IMG/VR virus record: IMGVR_UViG_3300044712_001597
Location: 1,687-65,686 of that record
Length of the DNA stretch: 64,000 bases
Origin: a virus
Lineage: Duplodnaviria > Caudoviricetes
Direction: 5' to 3' (one strand)
The notes under the pieces were generated by a model. That model saw nothing but the letters and a program-made list of their open reading frames with translations, did no database searches and was not told where the DNA came from. A program made the position numbers and the translations under genes. This document shows, piece after piece, positions 60,590 to 61,707 of this stretch; the first letter of the stretch is position 1, and each line of letters begins with the position of its first letter.

Positions 60590-60636
60590 TTTTTTTGTGT
60601 ACATGGCAGCTTGCTACGGATATAGATCTACTCGTC
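60590..60636 (+). promoter_or_regulatory. Phage promoter (copy 5)
   Basis: TTTTTTTG-TGTACA-17nt-TATAGA-TCTACTCGTC-ATGAGC. Confidence 0.7.
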
Positions 60637-60996
60637 ATGAGCAAACCATCTACTTCTCACGTGGAAGGATTCTTTCGCGGCGCAAGCCCGAGAATCGGAA
60701 CCATCAAGCAGGATTATCACGCGGCGATCCTCACCGGTTTGGGATTCTCTTCTCGAGCCATCGCCGAGAGGTTGTCCATTCCAAAGTCCCGAGTCACGCG
60801 TATCTCTTCCATCGTTGGAATCTCTTGCCGAGGCTACCGCGACATGCTGTCTCCTGCGAGTGCGTCCATTGCGAATATGGCCCTCAAAACCCGAGTGACG
60901 GAGCTGCAGGTTGAGAAATTCACTGGCCATGTCATCTCCCGTTTGCTGGGCGCTCGACTCTCCCCGGACGGTCTCACCCTCTACAAGCCATATTGA
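60637..60996 (+). CDS. HTH DNA-binding protein
   Basis: GFSSRAIAERLSIPKSRV. Confidence 0.65.
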   Translation: MSKPSTSHVEGFFRGASPRIGTIKQDYHAAILTGLGFSSRAIAERLSIPKSRVTRISSIVGISCRGYRDMLSPASASIANMALKTRVTELQVEKFTGHVISRLLGARLSPDGLTLYKPY

Positions 60997-61107
60997 AACT
61001 TGACAAAAACTTTCAGTGAGCGCGAATAAACTTACAAACCGGAGCGCACTCGTCGTGGGCTCGCAATGCCGAGGGTCGGCGAGCATCTGGCCCTGCACCC
61101 CTTCTCA

Positions 61108-61163
61108 GGGGTCGACTGAAGAGCGAAAGCGAAACGCCAAACGGCGTCTCGTGGAGTGGACCC
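61108..61163 (+). ncRNA. Hammerhead ribozyme (type I)
   Basis: CGA-CUGAAGA-GC GAAA GC-GAAA-CGCC AAAC GGCG-UC-UCG: full conserved core, GUC triplet, predicted cleavage after 61148. Confidence 0.85.
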
Positions 61164-61263
61164 AGCAGGGGAATAACCTGTCCACCCGCCCTCGGCACCT
61201 TGCCCCGCGACGAGTGCGCTTCTTAAGTTCATTCCGCGTTCCCACCCTCTACAAACCGTAATC

Positions 61264-61707
61264 ATGATTGGCGAAGATTTCTTACCTCTACCGGACTCCT
61301 TTGAAAAAGTCCTGACGCCTGAGAACCGAGTTCCTCTCGAGTTTCTTCCAGCTCATTGGCTTTTCATCGTCTTGACTAACGCATCTCGCAATGAGTACGC
61401 GTTCACCTACGGCGGTGAGCTTCATGTCAACTGGGAGAGTTCATATATCCATCACTTCTCTTCCACGAGCACAGGAATTCCTCCAACCTGCATCCAGATT
61501 GAGTGTCCTAATGGTCAAGTGATCGCCGTCAAGATTACTAGCATGCGGGAAAAGAAAGTCACGCCTGTTCAATCCTCGAAGCCTAAGACGACAAAATCTC
61601 CGGCTCCGTCATCCCACTTTGCTCAAGCTGCGCGCGCGGAAGCAGCCGAGCAATCCACAGAAACTCCGCGCAAGAAACTCACTCTCCGCCTCAAGCGAGA
61701 CGGATAG
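61264..61707 (+). CDS. Hypothetical protein
   Basis: ORF directly after the ribozyme element. Confidence 0.55.
   Translation: MIGEDFLPLPDSFEKVLTPENRVPLEFLPAHWLFIVLTNASRNEYAFTYGGELHVNWESSYIHHFSSTSTGIPPTCIQIECPNGQVIAVKITSMREKKVTPVQSSKPKTTKSPAPSSHFAQAARAEAAEQSTETPRKKLTLRLKRDG

What the first reader, a model, noticed from the sequence alone, without database searches (positions are those of the whole stretch)
61041..61222. Hammerhead ribozyme at the tip of a 180-nt rod-like RNA
Seen: an exact catalytic core CUGAAGA / GAAA / GUC with a minimal stem II (GC-GAAA-GC), stem III CGCC-AAAC-GGCG and stem I CGA/UCG, extendable by GGGUC/GACCC. It is nested inside two long helices: GAGCGCACTCGTCGTGGG (61042-61059) pairing with 61204-61221, and TGCCGAGGGTCGG (61067-61079) pairing with 61186-61197. 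Established: hammerheads occur in phages, but their roles are mostly unknown. Inference: self-cleavage of the early transcript after 61148 would leave both halves clamped by the outer helices, possibly giving a protected 5'-OH mRNA end, an RNase III-released small RNA or a ligatable RNA.
Basis: partly seen in the sequence, partly recalled or inferred. Interest (0 to 1): 0.85.

Follow-up and report, generated by a model that had tools for sequence, protein, structure and literature searches.

The report
Hammerhead ribozyme inside knotted phage RNA
The self-cutting hammerhead RNA is real, but it is an optional insert in a compact, doubly knotted small RNA that many unrelated phages carry, that matches no catalogued RNA family, and whose job is unknown.

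Summary
The hammerhead core reported at 61116-61148 (+) is real. A strict descriptor hits the 64-kb window once, against 0.015 sites per shuffle. All three stems covary in relatives.

The "180-nt rod" is only partly right. The outer 19-bp helix exists, but it is a feature of this member and a minority of others. The second "long helix" is one strand of a pseudoknot.

The stretch belongs to a widespread phage RNA family with no Rfam 15 match. Its core is two hairpins whose loops each pair with the other's 3' tail. A model built without the window scores it 93.7 bits, E 1.3e-22, as the only hit.

Relatives occur in uncultured phages, Mycobacterium phage Gaia, Arthrobacter phage Constance and E. 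coli prophages. Some are circularly permuted. Others lack the hammerhead and sit tightly between tRNA genes.

Cleavage after C61148 should give a nicked two-piece RNA held by about 38 base pairs. Its function is unknown. I infer a stable trans-acting RNA aimed at a conserved host component.

Cleavage and transcription are untested. This scan's earlier notes describe the same family on other DNA.

The parts
61000..61005 (+). Possible -35 box TTGACA. The best downstream -10 candidates (GAATAA or AATAAA, 61024-61030) are poor.
   Evidence: Read. The promoter scan did not list it, so evidence is weak. The RNA may instead be read through from the + strand genes upstream.
61041..61059 (+). P1 5' strand (19 bp outer closing helix). 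Its last six bases, 61054-61059, are the conserved family motif X1, CGUGGG.
   Evidence: MFE fold. Flank duplex -43.9 kcal/mol against a shuffled mean of -18.0. X1 is conserved in the 30-sequence alignment.
61060..61083 (+). Hairpin D (CUCGC 61060-61064 with GCGAG 61079-61083). Its loop carries E5' (61067-61076).
   Evidence: Helix table. In one search, helix 1 has 5 of 5 pairs changed on both sides and 92% of cells paired.
61084..61097 (+). Junction CAUCUGG (61084-61090), pseudoknot strand B5' CCCUGC (61091-61096) and the conserved A61097.
   Evidence: Near-invariant columns. B pairs with 61165-61170. The middle pair of B covaries across the family as G-C 22, U-A 6, A-U 1 and C-G 1.
61098..61111 (+). 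Optional hairpin Px (CCCCU/AGGGG, loop UCUC) between the core and hammerhead stem I.
   Evidence: Folds. It is present in only a few members, such as L006 and L014. In permuted members this hairpin is opened and forms the RNA ends.
61113..61151 (+). Type I hammerhead ribozyme, with the predicted cut between C61148 and U61149.
- Stem I: 61113-61115 with 61149-61151
- Core CUGAAGA: 61116-61122
- Stem II: 61123-61130
- GAA: 61131-61133
- Stem III: 61134-61147
- C17: 61148
61150..61185 (+). Motif X2, CGUGGAG (61150-61156), then hairpin C (GUGGAC 61156-61161 with GUCCAC 61180-61185). Its conserved loop holds B3' GCAGGG (61165-61170) and GAAUAAC.
   Evidence: In one search, helix 6 has 5 of 5 pairs changed on both sides and 96% of cells paired.
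61188..61197 (+). E3' strand GCCCUCGGCA, pairing with 61067-61076. It is followed by CC, so the sequence reads ...GGC-A-CC.
   Evidence: Own-versus-cross control: mean Watson-Crick run 6.85 in own pairs against 4.3 in cross pairs. Duplex energy -19.7 kcal/mol.
61204..61222 (+). P1 3' strand.
60595..60996 (+). Upstream ORF of 133 aa with no family match. Its stop codon lies 44 nt before P1.
61264..61707 (+). Downstream ORF of 147 aa with no family match. It starts 41 nt after P1.

Best explanation
Bases 61041-61222 (+) encode one member of a widespread phage RNA family that is absent from Rfam.

The conserved core is about 100 nt. It has two similar halves. Each half is a CGYGG motif, a 5-bp hairpin (D or C) and a tail. 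The tail of each half pairs with the hairpin loop of the other half (helices B and E). The result is two interlocked pseudoknots with rough twofold symmetry. In this phage a member-specific 19-bp helix P1 closes the whole.

A canonical type I hammerhead is inserted in the linker between the halves, as in most members.

Expected mechanism, with its basis:
1. The + strand is transcribed within the block of small + strand genes (inferred).
2. The hammerhead cuts between C61148 and U61149 (inferred from an intact, covarying core).
3. This gives a 5' piece ending in a 2',3'-cyclic phosphate and a 74-nt 3' piece (counted to the end of P1 at 61222) with a 5'-OH. The two stay joined by P1, E, B and stem I, about 38 bp (shown as base-pairing potential).
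4. The same cut separates the upstream message from the downstream one.
5. The mature nicked particle most likely acts in trans as a stable small RNA on a host component conserved across phyla, probably linked to tRNA or translation (inference from context and conservation).
For: - Hammerhead: the descriptor hits once, with 0.015 sites expected per shuffle.
- Hammerhead conservation: 38 unique family hammerheads were parsed.
  - The parsing pattern required CUGANGA, GAAA and a non-G position 17, so these were selected for, not discovered.
  - Their independent support is the near-invariant alignment columns.
  - N7 is U 21, C 12, A 5. H17 is C 33, A 5. The pair next to the cut is C-G 17, G-C 16, A-U 5.
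- Fold: on 30 sequences, 92.9% of cells pair, against 71.5% when shuffled and at most 41% when slid. 20 of 30 pairs change on both sides.
- Helix E: it covaries between purine-rich and pyrimidine-rich versions. Own pairs give 6.85 and cross pairs 4.3.
- Membership: a model built from 32 other members scores the window 93.7 bits, E 1.3e-22. It is the only hit in the window and in the whole 65.7-kb virus record.
- Strand:
  - The hammerhead core reads only on +.
  - There are 21 G-U cells against 7 A-C cells.
  - Intrinsic-terminator-like hairpins with U runs follow members L003, L033 and L057.
- Stand-alone RNA:
  - In tRNA arrays the hammerhead-less core starts 1 nt after tRNA-Gly and ends 5-6 nt before tRNA-Lys (L007, L011).
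  - No protein family recurs among 134 nearest ORFs at 45 loci.
- Natural circular permutation with all helices kept: 15 unique permuted sequences, in which D takes 3 forms and E takes 4 basic forms.
- Breadth: uncultured phages, phage Gaia, Arthrobacter phage Constance at 126.6 bits, and 108 of 5426 complete E. coli genomes.
- Breadth in bacterial genomes: Rhizobium, a Rhizobiales genome, Lysobacter, Bordetella and an actinomycete genome.
Against: - There is no expression or cleavage evidence for this locus or any relative.
- No Rfam hammerhead model matches the window even at E up to 10. The E. coli member reaches only 24.7 bits against a cut-off of 34.
- Stem I (3 bp) and stem II (2 bp plus GAAA) are minimal here.
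- Nearest-neighbour energies prefer a local alternative fold (-22.4) over the hammerhead fold (-15.1 kcal/mol) for 61098-61160.
- 13 of 38 family hammerheads have a non-standard pair next to the core in stem II. Perreault et al. used such a mispair as a reason to reject candidates (PMC3088659, passages seen).
- Gaia's core is degenerate (UUGAUAA), and 7 further members have no hammerhead. Cleavage is therefore dispensable for whatever the core does.
- The trans-acting role is inference only. The window has no tRNA genes. The element lies between two ORFs, which fits a cis role equally well.
- The promoter is weak or absent by the scan.
Confidence: 0.6

Rival explanations
1. Cis-acting message punctuation. 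The element exists to cut the early polycistronic transcript between the 133-aa and 147-aa genes. It would leave the upstream message with a structured 3' end and the downstream message with a structured 5'-OH end. The pseudoknot core would be only a protective cap or a folding chaperone for the ribozyme.
For: - The element sits 44 nt after one + strand ORF and 41 nt before the next.
- In E. coli prophages it lies in the late leader between Q and the holin.
- Perreault et al. describe hammerheads flanking genes in prophages and propose transcript processing (PMC3088659, passages seen).
Against: - Hammerhead-less members packed between tRNA genes cannot work this way.
- The two products stay joined by about 38 bp, so the messages are not really separated.
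- Loop and junction sequences are nearly invariant from actinophages to proteobacterial prophages. That is more conservation than a protective cap needs.
- Some members have their own terminator.
Confidence: 0.2
2. The double-pseudoknot core is itself catalytic or tRNA-like. It could be a new self-cleaving or self-processing ribozyme that trims its own 5' edge next to tRNAs. Or it could be a tRNA mimic whose E+D stack (7-10 bp plus 5 bp) imitates an acceptor/T arm ending in A-C-C.
For: - The core begins 1 nt after a tRNA 3' end in L007 and L011.
- Eckert et al. state that self-cleaving ribozymes cluster near one another (PMC10085705, passage seen).
- An unpaired A follows E3' in 28 of 41 members, my own tally of the printed column. 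I read N-C-C after the E helix in 18 of 41, the window included; for several members that reading needs the helix end shifted by one base.
- Extreme sequence conservation of unpaired loop bases is typical of active sites or of recognition by universal enzymes.
Against: - The helix order (D, E, D', B, C, B', C', E') is not that of HDV-like ribozymes as I recall it. I did not work through the twister or pistol helix orders, and no Rfam ribozyme model matches.
- ARAGORN finds no tRNA or tmRNA at the element.
- There is no T-loop-like sequence.
- The third base after E3' is not conserved.
- In the window X1 is buried in the 19-bp P1 helix.
Confidence: 0.12
3. One reading: a viroid-like rod with the hammerhead at its tip, processed by RNase III or ligated into a circle.
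For: The pseudoknot-free MFE fold looks like a rod. The 19-bp P1 helix is long enough to be an RNase III substrate, from general knowledge. Circular permutation in relatives shows that the ends can move.
Against: - The rod's inner helices are not the conserved ones.
- D, B and C covary and cross E.
- P1-like helices occur in only 12 of 41 members.
- There is a single hammerhead and a single copy in the genome, so a unit-length circle cannot be excised.
- The phage has no ligase gene.
Confidence: 0.04
4. A DNA-level element (attachment, packaging or origin site), or a chance motif with no function.
For: The - strand also folds well (z -5.98). A 9-nt direct repeat, TACAAACCG, flanks the element.
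Against: - Compensatory changes keep RNA pairs, including G-U on the + strand only (21 against 7).
- The hammerhead core is directional.
- The family occurs in unrelated phages at unrelated genome positions.
- The chance expectation for the motif is 0.015 per window.
Confidence: 0.02

Closest known systems
Type I hammerhead ribozymes of phages and prophages (Rfam RF00163; Perreault et al. 2011, PMC3088659, passages read by term search)
   Same: - Core CUGANGA / GAAA / A15.1-U16.1 / H17.
- Stems II and III closed, stem I open.
- Phage intergenic setting.
- The expected products are a 2',3'-cyclic phosphate and a 5'-OH.
   Different: - Stem I is only 3-5 bp and opens directly into a conserved double-pseudoknot RNA.
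- No stem I/II loop contact is evident.
- It scores below every Rfam cut-off. There is no hit for the window at E up to 10, and the E. coli member scores 24.7 bits against a cut-off of 34.
- The ribozyme is an optional arm of a larger RNA.
Two-piece, circularly permuted tmRNA (Rfam RF04321)
   Same: - Natural circular permutation.
- A functional RNA expected to consist of two base-paired pieces.
- Located in tRNA islands of phages.
- In one E. coli-type lineage a tmRNA-like tag template (ANDDVVLMAA*) lies 185 nt upstream.
   Different: - The window has no tag frame.
- It has no tRNA-like domain, and ARAGORN and Rfam find nothing.
- The tag module is missing from most family loci. A tag was found at 7 E. 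coli-type loci, and the other candidates look like chance.
GOLLD and ROOL, large phage RNAs of unknown function often next to tRNA genes (recalled; both are in Rfam)
   Same: Phage-borne, often beside tRNAs, no conserved protein partner, function unknown.
   Different: The core here is about 100 nt rather than 400-800 nt. There is no Rfam match. It carries a hammerhead insert.
HDV-like 'theta' ribozymes placed after phage tRNA genes (recalled, paper not read here)
   Same: A double-pseudoknot RNA directly downstream of phage tRNA genes.
   Different: The helix order differs from the HDV fold, by my own comparison from memory. No HDV-family Rfam hit was found. No self-cleavage is known.
Plant-virus tRNA-like structures with a pseudoknotted acceptor arm, such as TYMV (recalled)
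   Same: A strand near the 3' end pairs with a hairpin loop to build a coaxial stack of about 12 bp, followed by unpaired A-C-(C).
   Different: The terminal CCA is not conserved. There is no T-loop. Aminoacylation has not been tested. This is a resemblance only.
Divergent hammerhead cluster #1,533,398 of bioRxiv 10.64898/2026.10.21.760802 (passages read by term search)
   Same: A hammerhead-like cluster of 152 loci. Its best RF00163 score (26.4 bits) is below the cut-off of 34, much like the 24.7 bits found here.
   Different: No sequences were visible to me, so identity with this family cannot be judged. The passages shown to me mention no surrounding pseudoknot RNA.

Membership tests
Hammerhead ribozyme, type I | Conserved core: C3 U4 G5 A6 N7 G8 A9, G12 A13 A14, the A15.1-U16.1 pair, and a non-G at position 17. 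| tested here: met
   61116-61122 is CUGAAGA. 61131-61133 is GAA. A61134 pairs with U61147. C61148 is position 17.
Hammerhead ribozyme, type I | Three helices around the core, supported by covariation, with stem I open. | tested here: met
   - Stem I pair 2.1-1.1 is C-G 17, G-C 16 and A-U 5 among 38 unique sequences.
- All 4 pairs of stem II and 3 of 5 pairs of stem III change on both sides.
Hammerhead ribozyme, type I | Score at or above the curated cut-off of an Rfam hammerhead model. | tested here: not met
   There is no hammerhead hit in the window at the gathering score or at E up to 10. The permuted E. coli relative scores 24.7 bits against a cut-off of 34. The short stems I and II explain the low score.
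Hammerhead ribozyme, type I | Mg-dependent self-cleavage 3' of position 17. | not testable with these tools
   No RNA data set holds this stretch.
Hammerhead-bearing double-pseudoknot phage RNA (uncatalogued family, defined here and in earlier notes of this scan) | Significant match to a covariance model built from other members. | tested here: met
   Model R2, built from 32 members without the window, scores 61051-61210 (+) at 93.7 bits, E 1.3e-22.
Hammerhead-bearing double-pseudoknot phage RNA (uncatalogued family, defined here and in earlier notes of this scan) | Motifs X1 CGUGGG, junction CAUCUGG, X2 CGYGGAG and loop CCCAGCNGGGGAAUAAC, with helices D, E, B and C in the family order. | tested here: met
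   All are present at 61054-61197. The window differs in lacking the common CUAGG after helix C, and it has a longer helix E.
Viroid-like or circular hammerhead RNA | Rod or branched fold conserved among relatives. Paired ribozymes or tandem units able to release a unit-length RNA. | tested here: not met
   The conserved fold is pseudoknotted. There is one hammerhead and one copy in the genome.
tmRNA (one-piece or two-piece) | A tRNA-like domain with a T-arm and acceptor end, plus a tag reading frame. | tested here: not met
   ARAGORN finds nothing in the window. Rfam finds nothing. No tag-like frame lies within 900 nt of the element.
HDV-like (including theta) ribozymes | Nested double pseudoknot in the order P1-P2-P3-P3'-P1'-P4-P4'-P2', and a match to an Rfam HDV-type model. 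| tested here: not met
   The helix order here is D-E-D'-B-C-B'-C'-E'. No Rfam hit was found. The HDV helix order is recalled.

The most novel reading that the evidence does not exclude
The roughly 100-nt core would be a new class of functional RNA. It would be a pseudo-twofold, 'domain-swapped' pair of pseudoknots. Phages release it as a discrete small RNA, either by flanking tRNA processing or by a built-in hammerhead that turns it into a two-piece particle. It would engage a host component conserved from actinobacteria to proteobacteria. One version is a tRNA mimic, whose pseudoknotted 12-bp stack ending in A-C-C binds a tRNA-handling enzyme or the ribosome. Another is a sponge for a universal small molecule. 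A third is a new ribozyme.
Probability: 0.3. Interest if true: 0.9.

Novelty: new variant of a known kind. Interest (0 to 1): 0.7.

Why it matters
Most bacterial and phage hammerheads still have no known role. Here the ribozyme is tied to a defined partner, because it is an optional arm of a highly conserved small RNA. That makes its purpose testable, since nicked, intact and permuted forms of one RNA can be compared.

The core RNA is widespread. It occurs in 108 of 5426 complete E. coli genomes, in classroom-isolated actinophages and in many uncultured phages. It is absent from Rfam 15, and I found no description of it in six literature searches. It may therefore be an overlooked class of phage RNA acting on conserved host machinery.

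It is also a clean natural example of circular permutation, and possibly of internal duplication, in a small RNA. Cultured carriers exist, so the experiments are ordinary: Arthrobacter phage Constance, Mycobacterium phage Gaia and E. coli lysogens.

Tried and rejected
- **Rfam 15.** Nothing matched at the gathering score in the window. At E up to 10 around the element there were only chance-level hits: mir-9441, CRISPR-DR33 and Bp1_684. Nothing matched on the Gaia copy.
  - On 16 related loci the 42 matches were tRNAs, one RNase P RNA and one Betaproteobacteria-1 RNA, none on the element.
- **First motif scan.** Pattern GAGCATCTGGCCCNGCA gave 119 stretches. Of the 79 matches I examined in L070-L148, only 2 are family members. 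The rest are unrelated and were dropped.
- **Genome scan.** Only 5 of the 80 loci I tested are members by model R2. The taxon list must not be read as the family's range.
- **Helix A.** I first drew AUCUGG pairing with CCUAGG. I rejected it because the GG of CUAGG is usually part of helix E, and the window and L030 lack the partner.
- **tmRNA idea.** The tag-like frame occurs in only one E. coli-type lineage. ARAGORN found no tmRNA in 31 loci.
- **Protein partner.** No family recurs among 134 nearest ORFs at 45 loci. The top counts were Terminase_6N 4 and tRNA-synt_2b 3. Single cases included CsrA and the Ro60 vWA domain. RtcB was absent among the 25 of 26 families listed.
- **Ligases.** The phage has no RtcB or RNA ligase.
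- **Neighbouring genes in the window.** They match no informative family.
- **Expression.** No RNA holder was listed for window 60900-61400. The one DNA run may be the source of the assembly. I did not lay reads.
- **Energy comparison of pseudoknotted folds.** ViennaRNA cannot score pseudoknots, so one search gives only nested sub-structures and separate duplex energies.
- **Literature.** Six searches found no description of the core.
  - Term-search passages were read in three papers.
The hammerhead lists of Perreault 2011 could contain members without my seeing them. The RAGATH paper was not opened at all; its motif names are recalled.
Full report
**What is in the sequence.**
- Stem I is CGA (61113-61115) with UCG (61149-61151).
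- The core is CUGAAGA (61116-61122).
- Stem II is GC-GAAA-GC (61123-61130).
- GAA is at 61131-61133.
- Stem III is A61134 plus CGCC, loop AAAC, then GGCG plus U61147.
- C17 is 61148.

A strict hammerhead descriptor finds exactly this one site in both strands of the 64-kb window. In 200 dinucleotide-preserving shuffles the mean was 0.015 sites, and 3 of 200 shuffles had any.

The 182-nt stretch folds far better than shuffles: -106.1 kcal/mol, z -7.1, 0 of 200 as good. The - strand also folds well (z -5.98), so folding energy alone does not give the strand.

Rfam 15 reports nothing for the window at gathering scores. It reports no hammerhead even at E up to 10 in a 371-base search.

**Relatives.** The window is bases 1687-65686 of a 65,686-base virus record rated complete. 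A sensitive blastn against named phages gave one weak hit (E 0.08) in an unannotated gap after tRNA-Ser of Mycobacterium phage Gaia.

The two sequences share two long motifs and differ by compensatory changes. Scanning IMG/VR for the second motif, CCCAGCNGGGGAAUAAC, returned 67 stretches. Most share the whole architecture.

My classification covered the 73 motif matches in hand, including the window:
- 40 matches have standard order and an intact hammerhead pattern.
- 17 are circularly permuted with a hammerhead. One further permuted locus, L052, was mis-sorted as standard.
- 8 have standard order and no intact hammerhead. These include Gaia, whose core is degenerate (UUGAUAA).
- 8 are unrelated or cut by contig ends.

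The first motif was a poor probe. Only 2 of the 79 matches examined are members.

**The conserved fold.** There are 41 unique standard-order sequences. Parsing them gives the same layout every time, in this order:
1. X1, CGUGGG.
2. Hairpin D (5 bp), whose loop holds strand E5'.
3. Junction CAUCUGG.
4. Strand B5', CCCNGC, then a conserved A.
5. A variable insert.
6. X2, CGYGGAG.
7. Hairpin C (5 bp), whose loop is CCCA-B3'(GCNGGG)-GAAUAACUG.
8. A 2-4 nt linker.
9. Strand E3'.
10. Usually an unpaired A. I tally A as the first base after E3' in 28 of 41 rows of the table printed.

B pairs a strand upstream of hairpin C with C's loop. E pairs D's loop with a strand downstream of C. These are two interlocked pseudoknots.

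The covariation evidence on a 30-sequence MAFFT alignment is as follows:
- The five nested helices plus C give 92.9% paired cells. Shuffled columns give 71.5% (0 of 500 shuffles reach the observed value). Slid partners give at most 41%.
- 20 of 30 pairs change on both sides.
- All 5 pairs of D and all 5 pairs of C change on both sides. So do all 4 pairs of stem II and 3 of 5 pairs of stem III.
- The variable pair of B is G-C 22, U-A 6 (the window's type), A-U 1 and C-G 1.

Helix E could not be put in register by MAFFT. I therefore compared each D loop with its own tail and with other members' tails. The mean Watson-Crick run is 6.85 for own pairs (minimum 6) and 4.3 for cross pairs. Only 5% of cross pairs reach the own-pair mean.

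The two halves are alike: a CGYGG motif, a 5-bp hairpin, a loop with a pairing strand at a similar offset, and a tail ending in an unpaired A. Each tail pairs with the other half's loop. I read this as a pseudo-twofold, domain-swapped arrangement, probably born of a duplication. That reading is inference and was not tested statistically.

**The hammerhead within the family.** The parsing pattern itself demanded CUGANGA, GAAA and a non-G at position 17. Their presence in the 38 unique hammerhead sequences it returned is therefore by selection. The near-invariant columns of the 30-sequence alignment give the independent support.

Among the 38:
- N7 is U 21, C 12 and A 5. The window has A.
- H17 is C 33 and A 5.
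- The pair next to the cut site is C-G 17, G-C 16 and A-U 5. The window has A-U.
- Stem I is 3-5 bp.
- The first pair of stem II is G-C in 23 sequences. It is non-standard in 13 (A-A 7, U-U 5, A-G 1). It is A-U in 1 and G-U in 1.

The window's ribozyme is canonical at every core position. It has the shortest stems seen: stem I of 3 bp and stem II of 2 bp plus GAAA. Members L006 and L028 have the same stem II.

Nearest-neighbour energies favour a local alternative over the active fold for 61098-61160, at -22.4 against -15.1 kcal/mol. That is a caveat for activity. Such energies ignore the tertiary contacts of the core.

**Membership of the window.** A covariance model built from 32 other members scores 61051-61210 (+) at 93.7 bits, E 1.3e-22. 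This is the only hit in the window and in the whole virus record. The seed members score 108-146 bits, so this is a divergent member.

The window's own features are these:
- An extra hairpin Px (61098-61111) lies before stem I.
- Helix E is long, at 10 bp.
- The usual CUAGG after helix C is missing.
- A 19-bp outer helix P1 is present (-43.9 kcal/mol against a shuffled mean of -18.0). Only 12 of 41 members have flanks that beat all 30 shuffles.

**Strand and autonomy.**
- The hammerhead core reads only on the + strand.
- Paired cells hold 21 G-U against 7 A-C.
- Members L003, L033 and L057 are followed by a GC hairpin and a U run.
- The window's flanking genes are all on the + strand.
- In tRNA arrays the hammerhead-less core starts 1 nt after tRNA-Gly and ends 5-6 nt before tRNA-Lys (L007, L011). 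Ordinary tRNA processing would release it as an RNA of about 105 nt.
- In L047 a permuted, hammerhead-bearing copy sits between tRNA-Gly and tRNA-Ser.
- No protein family recurs among the 134 nearest ORFs at 45 loci.
- The window has no tRNA genes, and its neighbours match no informative family.

Together these points fit a self-contained RNA gene that moves between phages, like tRNA genes do.

**Circular permutation.** There are 15 unique permuted sequences, in which helix D takes 3 forms and helix E takes 4 basic forms. They keep D, E, B and C with fresh covariation. For example, D is UCGGC/GCCGA, CGUGC/GCACG or UGUGC/GCACA.

In these members the outer end is closed by a 31-38-nt hairpin, and the RNA opens at the position of Px. 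In the E. coli type the new ends form a helix of about 20 bp next to stem I (-22 to -30 kcal/mol). One phage contig, L056, has two tandem copies. Tandem duplication is the usual route to permutation.

**Range.** The E. coli form lies between antiterminator Q and the holin. It is unannotated, and it occurs in 108 of 5426 complete genomes.

Named phages with members are Gaia (129.5 bits; its sequence, as L029, was among the model's 32 seed rows, so this match is by construction) and Arthrobacter phage Constance. Constance scores 126.6 bits, has an intact hammerhead, and is partly annotated as a 36-aa ORF. Phage Karkharias is matched by blastn only, and Microcystis phage Mwe-JY26 gives a partial match.

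In bacterial genomes only 5 of 80 motif matches are true members: a Rhizobiales genome, Rhizobium, Lysobacter, Bordetella trematum and an actinomycete.

**What it does.** Shown: the sequence, the fold's covariation and the family membership.

Inferred:
- The + strand is transcribed.
- The hammerhead cuts after C61148.
- The two products are a 5' piece, 108 nt if counted from the start of P1 at 61041, and a 74-nt 3' piece running to 61222. They stay joined by P1 (19 bp), E (10 bp), B (6 bp) and stem I (3 bp).

Hammerhead-less members exist, so the cut is an accessory. It may define a 5' end, or it may uncouple the RNA from flanking messages.

Unpaired loop and junction bases are nearly invariant from actinophages to proteobacterial prophages. 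This points to a target that is itself conserved across phyla. The recurring tRNA-array setting, and a tmRNA-like tag module beside one lineage, point loosely to tRNA or translation. This is the weakest step.

**Known or new.**
- No Rfam 15 family matches.
- Six literature searches found no description of the core.
- I read term-search passages, not the whole text, of Perreault 2011, Eckert 2023 and a 2026 preprint. None described the core either.
- The preprint reports a sub-threshold hammerhead cluster of 152 loci that may or may not be this family.
- Earlier notes of this scan describe the same family on other DNA. I reached the fold independently, before opening them.
- One note's claim of an RNA-ligase neighbour was not borne out here.

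**Verdict.** The hammerhead is real. The rod is not the conserved structure. The stretch is a divergent member of an uncatalogued hammerhead-bearing double-pseudoknot RNA family of phages, and its function is unknown.

Noticed in passing
L188:4890-4944 (E. coli chromosome; also L012, L032, L038, L044, L055, L059): A tmRNA-like tag template lies 185 nt upstream of the permuted element. It encodes ANDDVVLMAA* and matches Rfam tmRNA_permuted at 26.3 bits, below the cut-off of 47. ARAGORN detects no tRNA-like domain. Sister loci such as L021 and L050 lack it.
   Followed up: partly
L007:2968-3382 (-): A 7.1-kb viral contig carries 27 tRNA genes and a full bacterial class A RNase P RNA (266 bits, E 1.8e-85), next to a hammerhead-less member of the family. 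A phage-borne RNase P RNA would be unusual.
   Followed up: no
window 61033-61041 and 61250-61258: A 9-nt direct repeat, TACAAACCG, brackets the element just outside helix P1. It could be a cassette insertion scar or chance. By my rough estimate about 0.2 such repeats are expected in 300 nt.
   Followed up: partly
L056:2552-2879 (-): Two diverged copies of the whole element, each with its own hammerhead, stand in tandem about 24 nt apart. Cutting at both would release a permuted unit-length RNA.
   Followed up: partly
L002:1470-1630 (Mycobacterium phage Gaia 77848-78008): Gaia's copy keeps the whole scaffold and stems II and III, but its core reads UUGAUAA instead of CUGAUGA. It is probably an inactivated hammerhead in an otherwise conserved RNA.
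   Followed up: partly
L310:1161-1271 (Arthrobacter phage Constance gene 68): An annotated 36-aa hypothetical protein overlaps the 5' part of a 126.6-bit member of the RNA family. It is likely a mis-called ORF.
   Followed up: no
family hammerheads: 13 of 38 unique hammerheads have A-A, U-U or A-G at the stem II pair next to the core (10.1-11.1). The stem covaries beyond that pair. This recurs in several lineages and may be a tolerated natural variant.
   Followed up: no
neighbour ORFs of family loci: Among 134 nearest ORFs, 3 carry a class II aminoacyl-tRNA synthetase core domain (tRNA-synt_2b), one a Ro60 vWA domain and one CsrA. These are too few to call an association, but all three bind RNA.
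   Followed up: no
L070-L148 (viral contigs): The 17-mer GAGCATCTGGCCCNGCA recurs in at least 77 unrelated viral contigs without the rest of the element. It is probably a conserved coding stretch of some phage gene.
   Followed up: no
L047:5089-5209 (-): A Betaproteobacteria-1 RNA (Rfam RF02932, 102.7 bits) lies on the same viral contig as a permuted member and two tRNA genes.
   Followed up: no
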